This document shows, piece after piece, positions 3,401 through 42,470 of a stretch of 64,000 nt of DNA. The DNA is from Shigella phage Tf. A program made the translations under genes and the position numbers. Under the pieces are notes generated by a model. That model was not told the DNA's origin, did no database searches, and saw only the letters and a program-made list of their open reading frames with translations. The first letter of the stretch is position 1, and every line of letters starts with the position of its first letter. The DNA lies in the sequence record OR980947; one strand, given 5' to 3'.

Positions 3401-4260
3401 AGCAAAGGGAACGATAAGACCAGAGATAGTGACCATGTTAATAGCTTGTTAAAAAGATTAAACACTTGTTAGAGACTTGTTAATTATCTTAACAAAATAA
3501 CTCCTAAAAATTAACTAATTGGTATTGTTACCAATCCCTGTTAGCTCTTGTTAGTCATCTGTTAAGAAACTATAAAGACCATGTATCGACTGTTAAGAAC
3601 TTGTTACACCCTTGTTAGTTCTGTTAAGAATCTGTTAAGACCTTTGGAGAGATGTTAAGAGCTTGTGAGAACTGTTAAGAGATTGTTAAGGATATTTTAA
3701 AATTTTGCAAAGGGGATGTTAAGGAGCTGTTAAGGGCTACCAAGCAGATATACATCCTAATCAGATATTTTCAGTTCCTTCAAAGACCCTAAAAAATGAC
3801 TTGACAGTCCTATTTTATAAAAATTTTAAGATTCTGAATAATTACCTATACAGCCTTTTAAAAATACAGGTAGAAACAGGCTTATAAGATACCTTGTTAG
3901 TACCGTGTTAGACCTTGTGAGATAAGGTCTGTAAAGATATTCCTGTTAAGTTTGTTAAAACAGTCTATATAGAGGCTTAGTAAACCTAGTGAACACCTAT
4001 AGAGAGTGTCATAGGTAACATAATGGGTTACTGTTAAGTAACACAGTTAACCTAGAGATTAAGAGGTGTATAGAGGCTTCTAAGAGCGTATAGAGGGATG
4101 GTTAAGGTGATTGTATAGGTTGTTAAGAAGGCTTGTTAGAAGAGTGTTTAGAAGGGCTATACAGAGGGGGCTATTAAGACCACTAGATAGTTACTAAGAT
4201 ACTATATAGTACTATATAACTATATAGAGAGTAAGATTAAGAAGGTTGTTAAGAAGGATA
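3130..4260. repeat. array of (C)TTGTTA / TGTTAAG(A) repeats at about one helical turn spacing
   Basis: roughly 35-40 copies, e.g. cttgttacacccttgttagttctgttaagaatctgttaagacc and gatgttaagagcttgtgagaactgttaagagattgttaagg. Confidence 0.75.
3516..3539. promoter_or_regulatory. palindrome-containing site taattggtattgttaccaatccct (copy 2)
   Basis: exact duplicate of 2865-2888. Confidence 0.45.
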
Positions 4261-4344
4261 GATATTTTATTCACATATGATGGTGACCCAGAGGTTGGGA
4301 CAACCGATAAAATTTTATAAAAATATAAATTTCGTAAATTTTAC

Positions 4345-4374
4345 TCAATAAAAAGCCCCCGATTAAGGAGGCTC
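4345..4374 (-). terminator. rho-independent terminator (minus strand)
   Basis: minus-strand agcctccttaatcgggggct followed by ttttt. Confidence 0.5.
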
Positions 4375-4384
4375 TTAAGATATT

Positions 4385-5062
4385 TTAAATCAGTGTTTCC
4401 AGAACTGTTTTTAGGGATGACTTGGTTGTCTGATAAAAATGAGTAAATCCATTATTGTTATCAAATACCTGCATCATGATATCATCTCCCTTGATTGGGT
4501 AAACTCGGATATCATAGTGAAAACCATTAAAGACACAAGAACCACTACAGAATGCTCTAAAGTCACTTGCTGAGATATACTCTTCATGACCTGTGATTTT
4601 TATACAAACACCTTTACTCGGCCTCTTAGGGTTGATATCTTCCATCACAGACATACTTTGTCCACCAAGAGATACCATAGTGACCACTTTACGATTCTGC
4701 TGTTTAACATACATCTCAAGTTTCTTCAAAGTATCTTCATAGAACGGATAAGACTTCTTGACAAAGATACCATCAAGTGGTTCTTTACAATCTTCCATAC
4801 GTTCATTATAAAGCTTGCTAGTAATACTATTAAGAGAGAGCTTCTCATCATCTGTCAAATATGTGTTGATATCATCCAGACTAAGTACCAGATACTTTCT
4901 TTCAAGTTCAAACTTTTTCATATCTATTAAGTCCTGAAAACATTTCTTAGTAATTGCTTCCCATTCTTCGGAGTTCTTCTTCTTCCTCCTCTTCAGATGG
5001 GGAACCATATCTTTCAAGTTCATCCAATTCATCCTGCGAAGGTGTCCCGTAAGATTCTTCAT
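4385..5062 (-). CDS. hypothetical protein (start uncertain)
   Basis: ORF-track ORF; terminator-like hairpin just downstream on minus strand. Confidence 0.4.
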   Translation of the reverse strand: MKNLTGHLRRMNWMNLKDMVPHLKRRKKKNSEEWEAITKKCFQDLIDMKKFELERKYLVLSLDDINTYLTDDEKLSLNSITSKLYNERMEDCKEPLDGIFVKKSYPFYEDTLKKLEMYVKQQNRKVVTMVSLGGQSMSVMEDINPKRPSKGVCIKITGHEEYISASDFRAFCSGSCVFNGFHYDIRVYPIKGDDIMMQVFDNNNGFTHFYQTTKSSLKTVLETLI

Positions 5063-5227
5063 CGTACAATTTCATAGTGTGGTATAGAGTAAGTTTTATT
5101 TCCAGATGACATGGCTAAATCTTCTTTAGTAGAGTTATCCAGTATTGCTTTACGAACAATTTCTTTAAGTTTCATTTTCACTACCTTGTTTGGTTAAGAG
5201 GGGCTATCAAGTAACCCCTTCAAGATT

Positions 5228-5455
5228 TTACTCAGAATCCTCAGATTTCTTTTCAGTCTTCTTCGTTTTCTTTTCAGCTTTCTTCTCAACTTCTGGTTTT
5301 GATTCTACAGTAGCTTCAATAGCAATGTCCAGAAGTTTTGAAAGGTCAGCTTTAAGAACCGTTACAGGTTGTTCATTGTAGTAGTTCTTGTCAAGGTGCT
5401 CTTTCAGTTCGTTCAGAGAGCTAAAGCCGAATGGCTGGATAGGTGTCTTAATCAT
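5228..5455 (-). CDS. hypothetical protein with lysine-rich C-terminus (75 aa)
   Basis: ORF-track ORF. Confidence 0.4.
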   Translation of the reverse strand: MIKTPIQPFGFSSLNELKEHLDKNYYNEQPVTVLKADLSKLLDIAIEATVESKPEVEKKAEKKTKKTEKKSEDSE

Positions 5456-6250: not shown

Positions 6251-6792
6251 TCTTTCACCATAGCGTTTCTGAACTGACGTTGAGTCTCTCTTGTAATTTC
6301 GTTTGGAGTAAAGCCAGCTTTTAACATATGTCTGAAAAGATGCTCTAAGTGATTCTCTTCAATAATATAAGTAGTCTTTGTAACTGATGTTTTAAGTTCA
6401 TCTAAGTTGCTATGTAGCTCCTTACACTTACTGGTAAGTTCTGTATCAACTCTCTTAAATACTGGCATCAGATGTGTATGACCACCTTTAGCAGCATCCA
6501 TGAAAAATTTAAAAGATTCTTCAGAGTCCTTTAAAGCAATCCCTATAAAGTTCTTGTAAACACCTGTGAAAGCTAAAGACTCAATCTCAGCAGTTGAGTA
6601 TACAGTCCCTGCGCACAGTCTTGCAGAGGTACTAAATGTGTGGTTTGGTGTTGTGTCAAAGTCTAAGTTCTTCAGTGGTCGAAAATAAACTGTACCATTG
6701 TGTGATATGTGTGTTACAACAGCCTCAACACTCTTCGAAGGGTTCTGTTTCACATACAAAATAATTTTATCGTGCTCTTTCACTTTAGCCAT
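6247..6792 (-). CDS. hypothetical protein (181 aa)
   Basis: ORF-track ORF, tightly packed with neighbours. Confidence 0.45.
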   Translation of the reverse strand: MAKVKEHDKIILYVKQNPSKSVEAVVTHISHNGTVYFRPLKNLDFDTTPNHTFSTSARLCAGTVYSTAEIESLAFTGVYKNFIGIALKDSEESFKFFMDAAKGGHTHLMPVFKRVDTELTSKCKELHSNLDELKTSVTKTTYIIEENHLEHLFRHMLKAGFTPNEITRETQRQFRNAMVKE

Positions 6793-15697: not shown

Positions 15698-15855
15698 CCT
15701 AATAAGATTTAAAGCCAAGCTTCATTCGGATGTTGCTTTGGTATACCGCGTGTATTGTTGTACACATTGATAAAACACCTAGTAGGTGTCACGGAGAAGA
15801 GATAATATCAAGCTCTCCAAAGGTTCTAGTCACCGGATTAAACAAGACTATGCAA

Positions 15856-15876
15856 AGACCTAAATAGGTCTTTTTA
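15856..15876 (+). terminator. terminator-like hairpin inside tRNA cluster
   Basis: agacctaaataggtct + ttttt. Confidence 0.45.
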
Positions 15877-15954
15877 GAGGGCTTCTAAGGTTATTACAGC
15901 TTGTTGTGGAACCTTGTTGCTTAGGTTCTTAGAAGTTCTCTAAAAAGATTTAAT

Positions 15955-16029
15955 GGGAGATTGATGGTAATTGGTAAACCTATCTCGCTTAGAACGAGAT
16001 GTTTGAGGGTTCGAATCCCTTGTCTCCTA
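15955..16029 (+). tRNA. tRNA with Leu-type anticodon TAG but short variable region
   Basis: acceptor gggagat/gtctcct, anticodon stem tctcg/cgaga loop ctTAGaa, T-loop GGTTCGAATCC, A73, CCA encoded; only 5 nt between anticodon and T arms. Confidence 0.5.
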
Positions 16030-16039
16030 CCAAATTAAT

Positions 16040-16112
16040 GCAGGTGTAGCAAAATGGTTATGCGGCTGACTCTTAATCAGTAAGACGATGGGTTCAATTC
16101 CCTCCACCTGTA
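16040..16112 (+). tRNA. tRNA-Lys (anticodon CTT)
   Basis: paralogue of the TTT tRNA at 14806; anticodon stem ctga/tcag loop ctCTTaa; T-loop GGTTCAATTCC; CCA encoded. Confidence 0.6.
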
Positions 16113-16121
16113 CCAGACATT

Positions 16122-16194
16122 GGGGATGTAGTTTACATGGTTAAAACATAAGTTTTGCAAACTTAAGTACAGGGTTCAATTCCCTGCTTCTCCA
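16122..16194 (+). tRNA. tRNA-Ala (anticodon TGC)
   Basis: D-stem gttt/aaac, anticodon stem taagt/actta loop ttTGCaa, T-stem cagg/cctg, CCA encoded. Confidence 0.7.
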
Positions 16195-16203
16195 CCAATT
16201 AGT

Positions 16204-16275
16204 GCATCCATAGTTTAAACGGGAAAATTACAGTCTTCCAAACTGAGGTTGAGGGTTCGATTCCCTCTGGATGCT
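16204..16275 (+). tRNA. tRNA-Gly (anticodon TCC)
   Basis: perfect acceptor gcatcca/tggatgc, anticodon loop ctTCCaa, T-loop GGTTCGATTCC, CCA encoded. Confidence 0.75.
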
Positions 16276-16284
16276 CCAAACAAT

Positions 16285-16358
16285 GCTGCTTTCGTATAAT
16301 TGGCTATTACACATCCCTTGTAAGGATGGAAATGCAGGTTCGAGTCCTGTGAGCAGCA
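16285..16358 (+). tRNA. tRNA-Thr (anticodon TGT)
   Basis: acceptor gctgctt/gagcagc, anticodon stem catcc/ggatg loop ctTGTaa, T-loop GGTTCGAGTCC, CCA encoded. Confidence 0.75.
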
Positions 16359-16456
16359 CCAATTCAGAGGTCAAGTGAAAGACCGCTGGTGTCAACTGAA
16401 GACCGTAACAAATTCCACGGAGTTGAGTTAGCGGCACAACTTCAGACCTCTTTCAC

Positions 16457-16528
16457 ACTCGCTTAGTTTATATGGTAAAACATCACCCTTACAAGATGAA
16501 GAAAAAGGTTCAAGTCCTTTAGTGAGTA
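16457..16528 (+). tRNA. tRNA-Val (anticodon TAC)
   Basis: acceptor actcgct/agtgagt, anticodon loop ctTACaa, T-loop GGTTCAAGTCC, CCA encoded. Confidence 0.7.
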
Positions 16529-16532
16529 CCAT

Positions 16533-16607
16533 GTTCCAGTATCCCAATTGGCAGAGGATGCAAGCTCAAACCTTGTATTAGTGACGGTTCGAATCCGTCT
16601 TGGAACA
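16533..16607 (+). tRNA. tRNA with Leu-type anticodon CAA but short variable region
   Basis: acceptor gttccag/ttggaac, Leu-like D-loop aattggcaga, anticodon stem gcaag/cttgt loop ctCAAac, T-loop GGTTCGAATCC, A73, CCA encoded. Confidence 0.55.
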
Positions 16608-16629
16608 CCAATTTTAAGAGGCTATTTAG

Positions 16630-17187
16630 ATGAGATACTTAAAGTATGCTTCATGGATTTTCTTAGCTTTGTTAGAGCCATTCGCAGCAATCTTAGCAGT
16701 TATCTTAGCACCTTTTGTAGTTCCATTCTATAGTGAGAAGAAAGGACATCTACCTTTCGGATTCAGATGGATGGAGACATATGACAACCCAATTGATGGT
16801 GATGAAGGTCACGTTAAAAGATGGGCTAAGATTAGAAAGATTGGTAATCTTGGTGTCTATTTGCAGAGAGTTGGATGGCTCTGGAGAAACAAAGCTTATA
16901 ACTTCTCTTACCATGTGTTAGGAAGAGACGTAAAAGATGTTACTAAGTGGAAAGGTAATATCAACGTGAGTTCTGACCCTGAAGATAATCAGACAGGTTA
17001 TCTCCTAATGTGGAACAGTAATGCTTGGGGATTATTCGCTTTTGTCCCATCAATTAAAATCTTTGGTAAACAATTCTACTGGAGAATTTATGTTGGATGG
17101 AAACTAAAAAGTGTTGTCCCAGAAGAAAGAGCATTCTCAAGGGAAAGAGTTATGTTGGCATTCTTTATTCATCCACTGAGAAAGTAA
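16630..17187 (+). CDS. hypothetical membrane protein encoded inside the tRNA cluster
   Basis: ORF 185 aa; N-terminal hydrophobic segment (IFLALLEPFAAILAVILAPFVVPF); Trp/Tyr-rich. Confidence 0.45.
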   Translation: MRYLKYASWIFLALLEPFAAILAVILAPFVVPFYSEKKGHLPFGFRWMETYDNPIDGDEGHVKRWAKIRKIGNLGVYLQRVGWLWRNKAYNFSYHVLGRDVKDVTKWKGNINVSSDPEDNQTGYLLMWNSNAWGLFAFVPSIKIFGKQFYWRIYVGWKLKSVVPEERAFSRERVMLAFFIHPLRK

Positions 17188-17195
17188 AGATTTAA

Positions 17196-17268
17196 AGGGG
17201 ATTAGTTTACAAGGTTAAAACCTCGGTCTTTGAAATCGAAGAAGTTGGTTCAATTCCAACATCCCCCG
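17196..17268 (+). tRNA. tRNA-Gln (anticodon TTG)
   Basis: anticodon stem tcggt/atcga loop ctTTGaa, T-stem gttgg/ccaac, CCA encoded. Confidence 0.7.
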
Positions 17269-17273
17269 CCAAT

Positions 17274-17349
17274 GCTCCATTACTCCAATTGGCAGAGAGG
17301 CCAGACTTAAAATCTGTGTTATGTATCGGTTCGAATCCGATATGGAGTA
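17274..17349 (+). tRNA. tRNA with Leu-type anticodon TAA but short variable region
   Basis: paralogue of 16533-16607 (shared aattggcaga D-loop); anticodon stem caga/tctg loop ctTAAaa; T-loop GGTTCGAATCC; A73; CCA encoded. Confidence 0.5.
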
Positions 17350-17357
17350 CCAAATTT

Positions 17358-17430
17358 AGCGGTATAGCATAACTGGCAATGCAGCAGTCTCTGAAGCTGT
17401 CTTATTAAGGTTCAAATCCTTATGCCGCTG
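17358..17430 (+). tRNA. tRNA-Gln (anticodon CTG)
   Basis: D-stem gcat/atgc, anticodon stem gcagt/gctgt loop ctCTGaa, T-loop GGTTCAAATCC, CCA encoded. Confidence 0.7.
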
Positions 17431-17434
17431 CCAC

Positions 17435-17464
17435 TTCTAAGGGTTCTTACGAGAGTCTTTAAAT
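17435..17464 (+). promoter_or_regulatory. conserved motif cttctaagGGTTCTTACGAGagTCTTTAAAtg (copy 3)
   Basis: just upstream of tRNA-His. Confidence 0.35.
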
Positions 17465-17537
17465 GTGGCCTTATCATAAATGGTAATGACCCATGCTGTG
17501 AACATGGTCTATACGGGTTCAAATCCCGTAGGTCACC
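17465..17537 (+). tRNA. tRNA-His (anticodon GTG)
   Basis: D-stem tcat/atga, anticodon stem ccatg/catgg loop ctGTGaa, T-loop GGTTCAAATCC, C73, CCA encoded. Confidence 0.75.
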
Positions 17538-17545
17538 CCAATTTA

Positions 17546-17620
17546 TAGTCCAAGTAGCTTATATGGTTAAAGCGCGTGTCTGAAAAACATGAGAAGAGGG
17601 TTCAAATCCCACTGGACTAC
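17546..17620 (+). tRNA. tRNA-Phe (anticodon GAA)
   Basis: perfect acceptor tagtcca/tggacta, anticodon stem cgtgt/acatg loop ctGAAaa, T-loop GGTTCAAATCC; D region slightly irregular. Confidence 0.6.
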
Positions 17621-17638
17621 CAATTTCAAAGGTGCTTA

Positions 17639-18373
17639 ATGAAAGAGATGACAGGACAAGGTAAGGAGATTTTTAATCTCTTAAAAACCGGTAAAGGGTT
17701 CTCTAACCCGCTTATTACTGGTGCAGCAGTTCTCGGTGGAACCGTAGCTGCTTCTACATCACTTGTAAGCTCTATTAGTTCTGTAACAGACCCTACAATG
17801 AAGGAGAAACTTGTTGCTGCTGGACTTACAACAGCCCTTCTAAACAGCTTTACAACAAGCCTGACAAGTACTACAGCAACTACTAAGACCCTAACAGACT
17901 ATGGTCAAAAGTCTATTGATGAGTTTTCATCACGTATGCAGGTAGCAAAGGGATACTCCAATGTTATGGGTGCAGCAGGAGAACAAGTTGGTTGTACACC
18001 ATTCAGTGGTATCATGGGTGTTGCTACAGAGTATGGTCAAAAAGCTATTGACATGATGAACAGTGCACTAGATAGTGTTAACGATGTATTAAGTGACTTA
18101 CAAGACGCTATTGACAAGGGTCTTGATACTGTTTCTGATTTAGCTAACCAAGCTGTCAGTAAGATTAATGAAGGTATCTCGAAGATTACAGCTTATGCAG
18201 ATGAAGTTGTGCAGATGATTGAAGAAGAAGCTGCCCTTATTGCAGAGTACCTTAAAACGAATATCAATGGGTTCTTAGCAGGTATCTTACCAGACTGGTT
18301 TGATGATGCTTGTAAAACTGGTGTAATTGACACTATTGCAACACCAGAAATGAAGAACGCATTACAGAAATAA
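17639..18373 (+). CDS. hypothetical protein, Ser/Thr/Ala-rich (start trimmed to avoid tRNA-Phe)
   Basis: ORF-track ORF 17576-18373 overlaps tRNA-Phe; in-frame ATG at 17639 preceded by aaaggtg. Confidence 0.5.
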   Translation: MKEMTGQGKEIFNLLKTGKGFSNPLITGAAVLGGTVAASTSLVSSISSVTDPTMKEKLVAAGLTTALLNSFTTSLTSTTATTKTLTDYGQKSIDEFSSRMQVAKGYSNVMGAAGEQVGCTPFSGIMGVATEYGQKAIDMMNSALDSVNDVLSDLQDAIDKGLDTVSDLANQAVSKINEGISKITAYADEVVQMIEEEAALIAEYLKTNINGFLAGILPDWFDDACKTGVIDTIATPEMKNALQK

Positions 18374-18375
18374 AT

Positions 18376-18465
18376 GGAAGATTAACCCTAAAAGGTAAGG
18401 GAGCAGTTTGCTAAACTGCCAGTAGCTGAGAAATCGGTGTACCAGTTCAAGTCTGGTATCTTCCT
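18376..18465 (+). tRNA. tRNA-Ser (anticodon GCT), long variable arm
   Basis: 90 nt; acceptor ggaagat/atcttcc, anticodon stem gcagt/actgc loop ttGCTaa, long variable arm, T-arm accag-TTCAAGT-ctggt, CCA encoded. Confidence 0.7.
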
Positions 18466-18472
18466 CCAATTT

Positions 18473-18545
18473 GAATCCGTGACAGAAACGGCTATGTGCC
18501 TGTCTGCAAAACAGGTTTATAAGGGTTCGAGTCCCTTCGGATTCT
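18473..18545 (+). tRNA. tRNA-Cys (anticodon GCA)
   Basis: acceptor gaatccg/cggattc, anticodon stem cctgt/acagg loop ctGCAaa, T-arm aaggg-TTCGAGT-ccctt, CCA encoded. Confidence 0.7.
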
Positions 18546-18593
18546 CCAAGTTATTTTACTCTCTCTCAATTAAAATAATAATAATGCCCTGCT

Positions 18594-18655: not shown

Positions 18656-18770
18656 ACTTTATAGGAAGACTTATACAGTATGTCTCTGACGTACATTGTG
18701 GTTTCTCCTTGACGGTCTCTGTGCCGTCTTTTTTAAGGGGAAACAGTATTAATTATTTGGAGAAAACATA

Positions 18771-42098: not shown

Positions 42099-42470
42099 AT
42101 GAAGTGGCTAGAGGAAGCTTTTAAAAATAATATTGGTGCAATTGTAGTTGGTATTTTTAGTGTTATCGGAATGTATACCACGATGCAAGTGTCAAGTGGT
42201 AAACAAGAGGTGTCTGTCAAAACAAAGTTACAACAGTTGGATAATTACACAAGTAGTAACTATTCAGCTATTCGTGATTTACAGTCTGACATTAGACTTA
42301 TTCAGTTAGGGATGGAGAACCAGAAAGTTCAGTTAGAGAATGTTAAGGGTGAGAACGCAAAACTTACTAAAACCCTTGATAAATTTTCTGATAGTGTGAA
42401 CAATCTGGCTCAATCAGTATCAGCCCTCCAAGCTATTACTGAAAAGAACACAAAGAATACTGAAAAATAA
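42099..42470 (+). CDS. membrane-anchored coiled-coil protein (spanin-like or lysis-associated, putative)
   Basis: N-terminal TM (IGAIVVGIFSVIGMY) followed by Gln/Leu-rich coiled coil; start abuts previous stop. Confidence 0.35.
   Translation: MKWLEEAFKNNIGAIVVGIFSVIGMYTTMQVSSGKQEVSVKTKLQQLDNYTSSNYSAIRDLQSDIRLIQLGMENQKVQLENVKGENAKLTKTLDKFSDSVNNLAQSVSALQAITEKNTKNTEK

What the first reader, a model, noticed from the sequence alone, without database searches (positions are those of the whole stretch)
16630..17187. Membrane-protein gene embedded within the tRNA cluster
A 185 aa ORF with an N-terminal hydrophobic segment and Trp/Tyr-rich body is flanked on both sides by tRNA genes and has its own Shine-Dalgarno-like sequence. 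Proteins encoded inside phage tRNA clusters are rarely characterised; this one could act in superinfection exclusion, lysis timing or as a cargo gene.
Basis: partly seen in the sequence, partly recalled or inferred. Interest (0 to 1): 0.4.

Follow-up and report, generated by a model that had tools for sequence, protein, structure and literature searches.

The report
Conserved membrane-protein gene among phage tRNAs
A real, strongly conserved but laboratory-dispensable membrane-protein gene (family DUF7338) sits between tRNA genes of this Felix O1-like phage; in smaller phages the same gene travels with the cell-bursting (lysis) genes, so it is most likely an accessory lysis protein rather than the phage's main holin.

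Summary
ORF 16630-17187 (185 aa) has an AAGAGG ribosome site and one N-terminal membrane helix, and lies 19 nt after tRNA-Leu and 8 nt before tRNA-Gln. The window is a Felixounavirus and the ORF is Felix O1 ORF48 / Bas63 gp153 (97% identical), Pfam DUF7338 and phrog_2143. It is under strong purifying selection (dN/dS 0.04-0.09) and gives a confident AlphaFold model (pLDDT 93.5) with no fold match in PDB or BFVD.

Some GenBank records call it a "class III holin" from topology alone. Three results argue against it being the main holin. It is unrelated to T4 holin T. It coexists with genuine holins of at least five families. A published genome-wide knockout screen of Bas63 finds it dispensable (fitness +0.5 to +1.9), while the endolysin and another membrane protein (gene 29; window 42099-42470) are needed.

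In eight distant lineages DUF7338 is contiguous with a lysis cassette, usually as its first gene and once with its stop codon overlapping the endolysin start. In large virulent myoviruses it lies within 1.1 kb of tRNA genes on the same strand.

Best reading: a non-essential, envelope-acting lysis accessory, co-transcribed with the tRNAs. The family is already catalogued; its function is untested. Interest is modest.

The parts
16630..17187 (+). DUF7338 gene (185 aa). Orthologue of Felix O1 ORF48, Bas63 gp153 and CPT_Mushroom87.
   Evidence: 97% identical to Bas63 gp153; dN/dS 0.04-0.09
16616..16621 (+). Shine-Dalgarno-like AAGAGG, 8 nt before the ATG, within a 19-nt spacer that begins right after the CCA end of tRNA-Leu
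   Evidence: sequence read
16648..16731 (+). Codons 7-34: the N-terminal hydrophobic signal-anchor / transmembrane helix, with invariant Pro28 and a conserved acidic residue at position 16
   Evidence: hydropathy; alignment A1; helix 2-33 in the AF2 model; family statistics
16777..16803 (+). Conserved motif 1, T50-Y-D52-N53-P-I-D-G57-D58 (T50, D52, G57 invariant)
   Evidence: alignment A1
16876..16899 (+). Conserved motif 2, W83-L-W85-R86-N87-K-A-Y90 (W83, W85, R86, N87, Y90 invariant)
   Evidence: alignment A1; used as a search pattern
17083..17109 (+). Conserved motif 3, R152-I-Y-V-G156-W157-K158-L-K160, in the beta-sheet part of the model
   Evidence: alignment A1; AF2 strands 147-157
16533..16610 (+). 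Upstream tRNA-Leu(caa). Its 3' end defines the start of the ORF's leader.
17196..17271 (+). Downstream tRNA-Gln(ttg), 8 nt after the stop codon. A tRNA-Gln(ttg) is also the neighbour of the gene in Vequintavirinae TH18 and Otagovirus phiPsa315.
15056..15084 (+). Best sigma-70-like promoter inside the tRNA block (TTGACA-17-TATAGT, 11 of 12), equivalent to Felix O1 'P45'. It is the likely source of the transcript that carries the ORF (inferred).
   Evidence: PMC3185647
18711..18728 (+). Terminator-like hairpin plus T-run after the last tRNA; the likely end of the tRNA/ORF transcription unit (inferred)
42099..42470 (+). Not part of the ORF but relevant to its role: 123-aa protein with one TM segment and a coiled coil (phrog_4038; Felix O1 gp79 position; matched to Bas63 gene 29 by gene order only). 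Its knockout is deleterious, so it is the better candidate for the essential membrane lysis factor.
8920..9384 (-). The phage's endolysin (Phage_lysozyme, E 8e-40), 7.2 kb away on the opposite strand. The lysis genes are scattered in this phage.

Best explanation
The ORF is a genuine, translated gene for a single-pass inner-membrane protein of family DUF7338. It has no room for a promoter of its own, so it is made from the polycistronic tRNA transcript. tRNA-processing enzymes that trim tRNA-Leu and cut at the 5' end of tRNA-Gln would release a roughly 580-nt mRNA with a 19-nt leader that carries the ribosome site (inferred from geometry). The N-terminal helix anchors the protein in the cytoplasmic membrane, probably N-in/C-out. 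This exposes a basic, Trp/Tyr-rich alpha+beta domain of about 150 aa with three invariant motifs on the periplasmic side (predicted). There it acts as a non-essential accessory of the lysis system, either a holin partner or a timing regulator (antiholin-like or auxiliary holin). It is not the phage's main holin. SHOWN: the coding status, family membership, conservation and membrane segment; the linkage to lysis cassettes and tRNA genes in other phages; the lack of relation to T4 holin T; and dispensability in Bas63. INFERRED: the topology, co-transcription and processing, and the lysis-accessory role itself.
For: Coding and conservation. Membrane anchor and topology bias: (single TM segment in 98% of members; N-flank more positive than C-flank in 84%). 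Geometry that forces co-transcription with the tRNAs. Lysis-cassette linkage, always on the same strand and contiguous, in eight lineages that differ by more than 30% in DUF7338 sequence: (1) phiAS5: DUF7338 abuts the lysozyme, then an Rz-like i-spanin. (2) L074: DUF7338, 3-nt gap, 3-TM holin, GH108 endolysin. (3) L075 group: Phage_holin_4_1 lies 120-138 bp downstream in all 15 loci. (4) L065: DUF7338, small TM protein, lysozyme, Rz/Rz1. (5) L066: DUF7338, Phage_holin_8, Phage_holin_3_7, M23 peptidase. (6) L077/L078: the DUF7338 stop overlaps the start (ATGA) of a SAR-like lysozyme. (7) L097: tail fibre, DUF7338, 96 aa, GH108, Rz. (8) L099, a lambdoid phage: holin, lysozyme, i-spanin, o-spanin, then DUF7338 abutting. 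In the T4-like STML-198 the order is tRNA-Arg, DUF7338, e lysozyme within about 2.5 kb. Accessory rather than principal: it coexists with T-type holins in PMBT1, Margaery and LF82-5 and with four other holin families (above). Bas63 gp153 knockouts have fitness +0.79 to +0.91 on BW25113, +0.84 to +1.85 on S17, and +0.46 to +0.60 on the first sheet of the defence-strain data. By contrast the endolysin scores about -0.95 to -1.2 and gene 29 about -1.2 to -1.9.
Against: In this phage the gene is not next to any lysis gene; the endolysin is 7.2 kb away on the other strand. Regions beside lysis cassettes and inside tRNA clusters are also common sites for unrelated accessory genes, so linkage alone does not prove function. 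Sigma-70-like promoters and the coarse Felix O1 RT-PCR (ORF48 maximal at 5 min) suggest early expression, which is unusual for a lysis effector. A partner-specific antiholin would not be expected to stay conserved while the holin family changes. No fold or sequence similarity to any known lysis protein was found. In about five lineages the neighbours are neither lysis genes nor tRNAs. The knockout screen shows only dispensability and reveals no lysis phenotype.
Confidence: 0.45

Rival explanations
1. It is the phage's holin: a class III holin like T4 T, with one transmembrane domain, N-in/C-out topology and a large periplasmic domain. This is how phage Mushroom and a few other records annotate it.
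For: The topology matches class III. The Texas A&M annotation of CPT_Mushroom87 as holin and the statement in PMC4392139 agree. In phiAS5 and L077/L078 it is the only membrane-protein ORF in the classical holin slot directly upstream of the endolysin, with an ATGA stop/start overlap in L078. None of the 42 listed Aeromonas phages with a T holin is of the phiAS5/Ah1 type.
Against: The Bas63 gp153 knockout is fully fit, while knockouts of the endolysin and gene 29 are deleterious. With a soluble lysozyme, loss of the sole holin should be at least as harmful as loss of the endolysin. The family coexists with T-type holins and with Phage_holin_2, 4_1, 8, 3_7 and GTA_holin_3TM. It shows no relation to Phage_holin_T (hhalign probability 0.1%; no Pfam hit). 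Transcription with the tRNAs is probably early.
Confidence: 0.12
2. It is an accessory envelope-protection or superinfection-exclusion protein, functionally like T4 Imm/Sp or T5 Llp. It would be useful only against competing phages or in particular hosts, and would be unrelated to lysis.
For: It is dispensable in pure laboratory culture yet under strong purifying selection. It is probably expressed early with the tRNAs. It is a membrane anchor with an exposed domain. In several small phages it sits at the junction of tail-fibre and lysis genes, where exclusion genes are often found (the last point is my own knowledge).
Against: In the lambdoid L099 it abuts the o-spanin gene inside the Q-dependent late operon, so it would not be expressed in a lysogen. 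It is translationally coupled to the endolysin in L078. The ectodomain motifs are invariant across phages with very different receptors and hosts, including a Bacillus phage. There is no hit to defence or exclusion models.
Confidence: 0.2
3. Its function is tied to the tRNAs themselves, for example a membrane-tethered, basic, RNA-binding domain facing the cytoplasm that helps phage tRNAs or counters tRNA-targeting host defences.
For: The gene lies within 1.1 kb of tRNA genes, on the same strand, in at least five phage groups. These include RB43/KP27-type phages, which show only 1-2 tRNAs in the 20 kb scanned, and 34-35%-identical relatives where it starts 17-267 bp after a tRNA. The domain is basic (median net charge +7) and rich in Trp, Tyr, Arg and Lys. 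The neighbouring Ro60-like gene counters a defence system in Bas63.
Against: About as many lineages have no tRNA nearby and carry lysis genes instead. Flanking-charge bias predicts the domain is outside the cytoplasm in 84% of members. No RNA-binding fold or family was detected. tRNA genes and lysis genes are themselves often neighbours: T4 e lies beside the tRNA region and lambdoid tRNAs lie upstream of S (own knowledge), and STML-198 shows the link directly. That could explain the linkage indirectly.
Confidence: 0.08
4. It is a chance or decaying ORF, and its conservation reflects RNA-level constraints of the tRNA cluster.
For: None beyond its unusual location.
Against: dN/dS is 0.04-0.09 with saturated synonymous sites. 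Protein-level homologues reach down to 26-35% identity in unrelated phages. The structure model is confident.
Confidence: 0.01

Closest known systems
Pfam DUF7338 (PF24027) / PHROG phrog_2143: uncharacterised phage protein family
   Same: Full-length match far above threshold (208 bits against a cut-off of 27; E 1e-80 to the PHROG). Same length and the same N-terminal hydrophobic helix.
   Different: Nothing differs; this ORF is a typical member. The family has no assigned function, and the library search for 'DUF7338' found no paper.
T4 holin T (class III holin, Pfam Phage_holin_T)
   Same: One N-terminal transmembrane segment followed by a large globular domain predicted to be periplasmic, and a similar size (185 against 218 aa). 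This resemblance is the basis of the 'holin' label in phage Mushroom.
   Different: No sequence or profile similarity. It coexists with T in several T4-like phages. It has only about 6 residues before the membrane segment, whereas T has about 34 (own knowledge). It is dispensable in Bas63. It is probably transcribed with early tRNAs rather than late.
Antiholins and lysis-timing accessories (T4 RI; P1 LydB; lambda S107)
   Same: They are non-essential, linked to lysis genes, and membrane-associated. T4 RI also has an N-terminal membrane segment plus a periplasmic domain, and is expressed both early and late (own knowledge).
   Different: RI is about 97 aa with a releasable SAR anchor and is specific for holin T (own knowledge). 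DUF7338 has a strongly hydrophobic anchor and accompanies at least five unrelated holin families. No binding or timing data exist for it.
Mu gp25 'releasin' (DUF2730) and Shewanella LambdaSo Lcc6
   Same: These are precedents for a 'DUF' membrane protein with an N-terminal TM segment that maps next to endolysins of several enzymatic classes and proved to be a new lysis factor (PMC9239132; doi 10.1101/2024.01.23.576932). In L077/L078 DUF7338 directly precedes a SAR-like endolysin, and no pinholin-like ORF is seen on that strand nearby.
   Different: Releasin is 99 aa, predicted N-out/C-in, and has an acidic cytoplasmic domain. DUF7338 is about 185 aa, predicted N-in/C-out, and has a basic domain. 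There is no Pfam cross-hit. Lcc6 is only 65 aa.
mRNAs co-transcribed with tRNAs (E. coli thrU-tyrU-glyT-thrT-tufB operon; ORFs and small stable RNAs in the T4 tRNA cluster); own knowledge
   Same: A protein-coding gene packed between tRNA genes with spacers too short for a promoter or terminator, so expression must depend on the tRNA transcript and its processing.
   Different: Here the ORF is internal to the cluster, with tRNAs on both sides at 19 and 8 nt. Processing has not been mapped experimentally.

Membership tests
Pfam DUF7338 / phrog_2143 | Full-length profile match above the curated threshold | tested here: met
   PF24027: E 8.7e-62, 208.4 bits (cut-off 27), residues 1-184. phrog_2143: E 1.4e-80.
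Pfam DUF7338 / phrog_2143 | Shared architecture: about 165-200 aa, a single N-terminal hydrophobic helix, and the invariant T-x-D-N / W-x-W-R-N / G-W-K motifs | tested here: met
   Alignment A1; 169 members analysed; 873 clusters, all single-domain.
Class III holin (T4 T, Phage_holin_T) | Sequence or profile homology to T | tested here: not met
   hhalign probability 0.1%; no Phage_holin_T hit at E<=1, whereas T4 T itself scores 1.5e-118.
Class III holin (T4 T, Phage_holin_T) | One TM segment, N-in/C-out, large periplasmic domain | tested here: inconclusive
   The single TM segment is clear. Orientation rests only on flanking-charge bias (84% of members); there is no experimental topology.
Holin (functional class, any family) | Required for lysis when the endolysin is soluble | tested here: not met
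   Published Bas63 knockout data: gp153 fitness +0.46 to +1.85 on three backgrounds, against about -1 for the endolysin and -1.2 to -1.9 for gene 29. gp153 is 97% identical to this ORF.
Holin (functional class, any family) | Forms lethal membrane lesions at a programmed time | not testable with these tools
   Needs expression and membrane-potential assays.
Holin (functional class, any family) | Encoded next to the endolysin and transcribed late | tested here: not met
   In this phage the endolysin is 7.2 kb away on the opposite strand. The tRNA block has sigma-70-like promoters, and Felix O1 ORF48 RT-PCR peaks at 5 min. The feature is met in eight other lineages.
Antiholin / lysis-timing regulator | Non-essential and genetically linked to holin and endolysin genes | tested here: met
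   Dispensable in Bas63. Directly upstream of recognised holins in L066, L074 and the L075 group.
Antiholin / lysis-timing regulator | Binds or inhibits the holin; loss causes early lysis | not testable with these tools
   No lysis-timing data exist. Pooled fitness scores cannot distinguish early lysis from neutrality.
Mu releasin (DUF2730) | DUF2730 profile match; N-out/C-in topology; acidic cytoplasmic domain | tested here: not met
   No DUF2730 hit. Predicted orientation is the opposite and the domain is basic. Features of gp25 are taken from PMC9239132.
i-spanin (Rz-like) | N-terminal TM segment plus a periplasmic coiled coil, paired with an o-spanin lipoprotein | tested here: not met
   The model shows a globular alpha+beta domain with a five-stranded sheet, not a coiled coil. 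The family coexists with Rz-like genes in phiAS5, L065, L097 and L099.
Known anti-phage defence or exclusion proteins (PADLOC models) | Profile match | tested here: not met
   0 families at E<=1; NCBIfam also 0.

The most novel reading that the evidence does not exclude
DUF7338 is an unrecognised, widespread component of phage lysis systems. In this reading it is a single-pass membrane protein with a new fold that works with any holin or endolysin type, as a general timing regulator, a co-holin, or a release factor for SAR endolysins. In large virulent myoviruses it has moved into tRNA clusters and is expressed from the tRNA precursor. Bas63 gp153 would be the immediately tractable model.
Probability: 0.3. 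Interest if true: 0.6.

Novelty: already known. Interest (0 to 1): 0.33.

Why it matters
The gene itself is ordinary in that it is present and annotated in hundreds of sequenced phages, has a Pfam entry and has knockout data. The value lies in correcting and sharpening its annotation. The 'holin' label that is spreading through GenBank rests on topology alone and conflicts with published knockout data and with coexistence with true holins. The comparative pattern found here gives phage-lysis researchers a concrete candidate. The gene is the first gene of lysis cassettes in small phages and is tRNA-linked in large ones, it is under strong purifying selection, and it has no known fold. That makes it a candidate fifth cassette component, following recent finds such as Mu releasin and LambdaSo Lcc6. 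It is also a clean example of a protein gene whose expression must depend on tRNA processing.

Tried and rejected
2. NCBIfam and PADLOC: no hits.
3. Literature: a search for 'DUF7338' found no paper.
4. Domain fusions: the longer family members carry no second Pfam domain. The apparent 333-aa fusion in L066 was my own ORF-calling artefact; two genes in different frames had been merged.
5. Homology to T4 T: rejected.
6. Whether the gene upstream of e in IME13 is a DUF7338 relative: rejected (hhalign probability 0.4%).
7. Whether phiAS5-type phages lack a T holin: only partly answered. phiAS5 and Ah1 are absent from the 42 listed Aeromonas phages with T, but 2 of the 44 records were not shown.
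8. Three annotated-region runs were wasted, two on wrong regions of Mushroom and Moogle and one on a misremembered Bas63 accession.
9. Covariation in the conserved spacer 16362-16456: uninformative with three distinct sequences.
10. Felix O1 RT-PCR timing: judged too coarse to rely on, because capsid genes fall in the same '5 min' class.

Full report
OBSERVATION. It lies between tRNA-Leu(caa) 16533-16610 and tRNA-Gln(ttg) 17196-17271, inside a block of 23 tRNA genes at 13703-18548. Rfam adds one more tRNA at 14289-14371. The spacer between the encoded CCA end of tRNA-Leu and the ATG is only 19 nt. It holds AAGAGG at 16616-16621, 8 nt from the start codon. Eight nucleotides separate the stop codon from tRNA-Gln. 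Residues about 7-34 are strongly hydrophobic, Trp and Tyr are 5.4% each, and the pI is 9.9. The description is confirmed.

IDENTITY. The window is a Felix O1-like myovirus (Felixounavirus). The protein is 95-98% identical to proteins of about 200 Escherichia and Salmonella phages of that genus. It is Felix O1 ORF48, Bas63 gp153 (97% identical) and CPT_Mushroom87. It is a full-length member of Pfam DUF7338 (E 9e-62) and of phrog_2143, both of unknown function.

Homologues occur in 567 phage records. Besides the Felixounaviruses these include a Vequintavirinae phage, many T4-like Straboviridae (RB43, KP27, GAP161, VR20, STML-198 and others), and Aeromonas, Vibrio, Pseudomonas and Bacillus phages. 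A profile search of 1.84 billion representatives finds 873 clusters, essentially all single-domain proteins of 165-200 aa.

THE 'HOLIN' LABEL. A few GenBank records call this gene a holin. [quoted passage not shown] That is a topology argument only. The original Felix O1 paper listed other holin candidates and not this ORF (PMC3185647).

I tested the label in three ways. First, T4 holin T is unrelated to the family (hhalign probability 0.1%). Second, T-type holins coexist with DUF7338 in T4-like phages: PMBT1, Margaery and LF82-5 appear in both hit lists.

Third, a published genome-wide knockout screen of Bas63 (PhageMaP, doi 10.1101/2024.10.10.617714) gives direct data.
- gp153 knockouts score +0.84 to +1.85 on strain S17, +0.79 to +0.91 on BW25113, and +0.46 to +0.60 on the first sheet of the defence-strain data. 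These are the values of a dispensable gene.
- The endolysin (gene 123) scores about -0.95 to -1.2.
- A second 'holin*', gene 29, scores -1.2 to -1.9 on MG1655, BW25113 and DH10B.

By gene order, gene 29 corresponds to window ORF 42099-42470. This is a 123-aa protein with one membrane segment and a coiled coil, lying between the tail fibres and thymidylate synthase. With a soluble lysozyme, loss of the only holin should be at least as harmful as loss of the endolysin. This ORF is therefore not the phage's principal holin.

CONTEXT IN OTHER PHAGES. Two regularities emerged from 78 IMG/VR loci, annotated GenBank records and metagenomic contigs.

(a) tRNA linkage. With one exception, wherever tRNA genes lie within the roughly 20 kb examined, the DUF7338 gene is within 1.1 kb of them on the same strand. 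The exception is L068/L069, which have a single opposite-strand tRNA about 8.6 kb away.

| Phage group | Position relative to tRNAs |
|---|---|
| Felixounaviruses, an 88%-identical relative, Vequintavirinae-type phages | Embedded in the cluster |
| Otagovirus phiPsa315 (26% identity) | Embedded in the cluster |
| Two Straboviridae groups with 18-24 tRNAs | Embedded in the cluster |
| RB43/KP27-type phages, with only one or two tRNAs in the 20 kb scanned | 0.2-1.1 kb downstream |
| Gaprivervirus/Gelderlandvirus-type phages, with 2-3 tRNAs in the 20 kb scanned | 0.2-1.1 kb downstream |
| A 34-35%-identical lineage (L071, L073, L084) | Starts 17-267 bp after a tRNA |

Between Felixounaviruses and the Vequintavirinae-type loci, nucleotide similarity covers the ORF (74-76%), tRNA-Gly (88%), tRNA-Ser (79-80%) and an unannotated spacer (81-83%). 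This is consistent with a shared block of tRNAs and ORF. Even if each taxon is counted once, the chance of such proximity is very small.

(b) Lysis-cassette linkage. Eight lineages without nearby tRNAs have the gene contiguous with lysis genes on the same strand, usually as the first gene of the cassette.
- phiAS5: DUF7338 abuts a soluble lysozyme, followed by an Rz-like i-spanin.
- L074: DUF7338, a 3-nt gap, a 3-TM holin, then a GH108 endolysin.
- L075 group: Phage_holin_4_1 lies 120-138 bp downstream in all 15 loci, followed by an endolysin.
- L065: DUF7338, a small TM protein, lysozyme, another small TM protein, then Rz/Rz1.
- L066: DUF7338, Phage_holin_8, Phage_holin_3_7, then an M23 peptidase.
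- L077/L078: the DUF7338 stop codon overlaps (ATGA) the start of a lysozyme with a Gly/Ala/Ser-rich SAR-like N-terminus, followed by a coiled-coil ORF. No other membrane-protein ORF is seen on that strand nearby.
- L097: tail fibre, DUF7338, a 96-aa TM protein, GH108, then Rz.
- L099, a lambdoid phage: holin, lysozyme, i-spanin, o-spanin, then DUF7338 abutting, upstream of terminase.

The companion holins belong to at least five families and the endolysins to three enzyme classes. In the T4-like STML-198 the order is tRNA-Arg, 922 bp, DUF7338, 946 bp, e-type lysozyme. This is the T4 'tRNA-e' neighbourhood and a possible bridge between the two patterns. About five lineages show neither association: the Vibrio phage MS31 locus L004, L059-61, the jumbo-phage locus L064 next to an RNA polymerase subunit, L094, and L079.

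HOW IT PROBABLY WORKS. The following is shown:
- It is a real, constrained protein with one N-terminal membrane segment. 98% of 169 members have one and 4% have a second.
- The 19-nt and 8-nt spacers leave no room for an independent promoter or terminator.
- The tRNA block carries sigma-70-like promoters at 13556, 13647 and 15056 (11 of 12 matches for the last, the Felix O1 'P45').
- A terminator-like hairpin lies at 18711.
- The Felix O1 orthologue is transcribed, with its maximum at 5 min, although that table is coarse.

The following is inferred. The ORF is transcribed as part of the tRNA precursor and is freed by the enzymes that mature the flanking tRNAs. The N-flank is more positive than the C-flank in 84% of members. 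This predicts N-in/C-out, with the basic domain (median net charge +7, 12% Trp+Tyr) exposed to the periplasm. Its recurrent position at the head of lysis cassettes, its independence of holin and endolysin type, its coexistence with complete holin-endolysin-spanin sets and its dispensability all fit an accessory that tunes lysis. It could be a timing regulator (antiholin-like) or an auxiliary holin, acting on something generic such as the membrane, the cell wall, or a common feature of holins.

I put 0.45 on this lysis-accessory reading. The alternatives are the principal class III holin (0.12), an exclusion or envelope-protection accessory (0.20) and a tRNA/RNA-linked function (0.08). A chance ORF is excluded.

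COMPARISON WITH KNOWN SYSTEMS. The ORF is a member of DUF7338/phrog_2143. It resembles T4 T only in topology. It fails the holin membership tests for homology, essentiality and, in this phage, late expression next to the endolysin. It resembles antiholins in being non-essential and cassette-linked, but there are no binding or timing data.

The best conceptual precedents are Mu gp25 'releasin' and LambdaSo Lcc6. Releasin was a DUF protein with an N-terminal membrane segment, found near endolysins of several classes, which proved to be a new lysis function (PMC9239132). Lcc6 is reported in doi 10.1101/2024.01.23.576932. DUF7338 shares neither sequence nor predicted orientation with either. The packing between tRNAs recalls the E. 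coli tRNA-tufB operon and the ORFs and small RNAs of the T4 tRNA cluster (own knowledge).

VERDICT. The gene and its family are already catalogued, and the orthologue has knockout data, so as a feature it is already known. Three things are worth recording: the 'holin' annotation is unsupported as a principal holin; the family shows a dual linkage to lysis cassettes and tRNA genes across many lineages; and the fold is unmatched. Interest is 0.33. The most novel reading still open is a general, previously unrecognised lysis-cassette component, at a probability of about 0.3, and it would merit about 0.6 if true.

Noticed in passing
window 17639-18373 (+); the mechanical ORF listing starts it at a GTG at 17576, overlapping tRNA-Phe 17547-17622: A second protein gene is embedded in the tRNA cluster, between tRNA-Phe and tRNA-Ser(gct). 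It is 244 aa and matches Pfam DUF7217 (E 5e-89) and phrog_2114, with a weaker match to the C-terminal part of phrog_289. It is Felix O1 ORF49 and Bas63 gp159 ('membrane protein*'), whose knockout is roughly neutral. Some records, such as ESCO45, leave it unannotated.
   Followed up: partly
window 42099-42470 (+): A 123-aa protein with one N-terminal TM segment and a coiled-coil, charged C-terminal part (phrog_4038), lying between the tail-fibre genes and thymidylate synthase (the Felix O1 gp79 position). By gene order it corresponds to Bas63 gene 29; I did not compare the sequences. The gene 29 knockout is as deleterious as, or more deleterious than, loss of the endolysin (-1.2 to -1.9). It is therefore the better candidate for the essential holin or membrane lysis factor of Felixounaviruses. 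phiAS5 ORF118, an Rz-like i-spanin next to the lysozyme, weakly matches the same PHROG (E 4.5e-6).
   Followed up: partly
window 12122-13537 (+): A 471-aa protein (DUF2828 + DUF7788; labelled 'vWFA protein' or 'RNA-binding protein' in relatives) lies directly upstream of the tRNA cluster. The PhageMaP preprint reports that its Bas63 orthologue gp130 is Ro60-like and counters the Ppl defence system, and speculates that some 'tRNAs' may be Y-RNA-like partners.
   Followed up: no
window 16362-16456 (+), between tRNA-Thr and tRNA-Val: A 95-nt spacer is 100% identical in Felix O1 and Bas63 and 81-83% identical in Vequintavirinae-type loci. It is predicted to fold into an extended hairpin (-30.7 kcal/mol, z = -2.96). 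There is no Rfam hit and no covariation support (only 3 distinct sequences). It could be a small stable RNA like those in the T4 tRNA cluster, or a tRNA remnant.
   Followed up: partly
window 14289-14371 (+): Rfam's tRNA model finds a 24th tRNA (44 bits, above the gathering score) that ARAGORN missed. It is directly after tRNA-Tyr, where Felix O1 and Bas63 have tRNA-Asp.
   Followed up: no
window 15098-15287 (+): There is a weak tmRNA-like match (16 bits, far below the gathering score of 47) just downstream of the strong sigma-70-like promoter at 15056-15084. Announcements for Felix O1-like phages report an ARAGORN 'ssrA' in Felix O1 and Moogle but not in Mushroom. This is probably not a functional tmRNA.
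   Followed up: no
window 18376-18468 (+); L104 6707-6799: The long-arm tRNA called Ser(gct) by ARAGORN here is annotated tRNA-Arg (AGA) in the Bas63 record. In the Mushroom record the tRNAs are annotated on the strand opposite to the ORFs they are interleaved with. Both look like annotation inconsistencies in public records.
   Followed up: no
L102 (Felix O1) 4031-4516, 5004-5396, 6314-6727, compared with the window tRNA block: Felix O1 carries three HNH endonuclease genes and an extra tRNA-Arg(acg) inside the tRNA cluster that this window lacks. Many relatives have tRNA-Arg(acg) rather than tRNA-Leu(caa) as the immediate upstream neighbour of the ORF. The cluster is evidently a hot-spot for insertions, while the DUF7338 gene and its downstream tRNA-Gln stay fixed.
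   Followed up: partly
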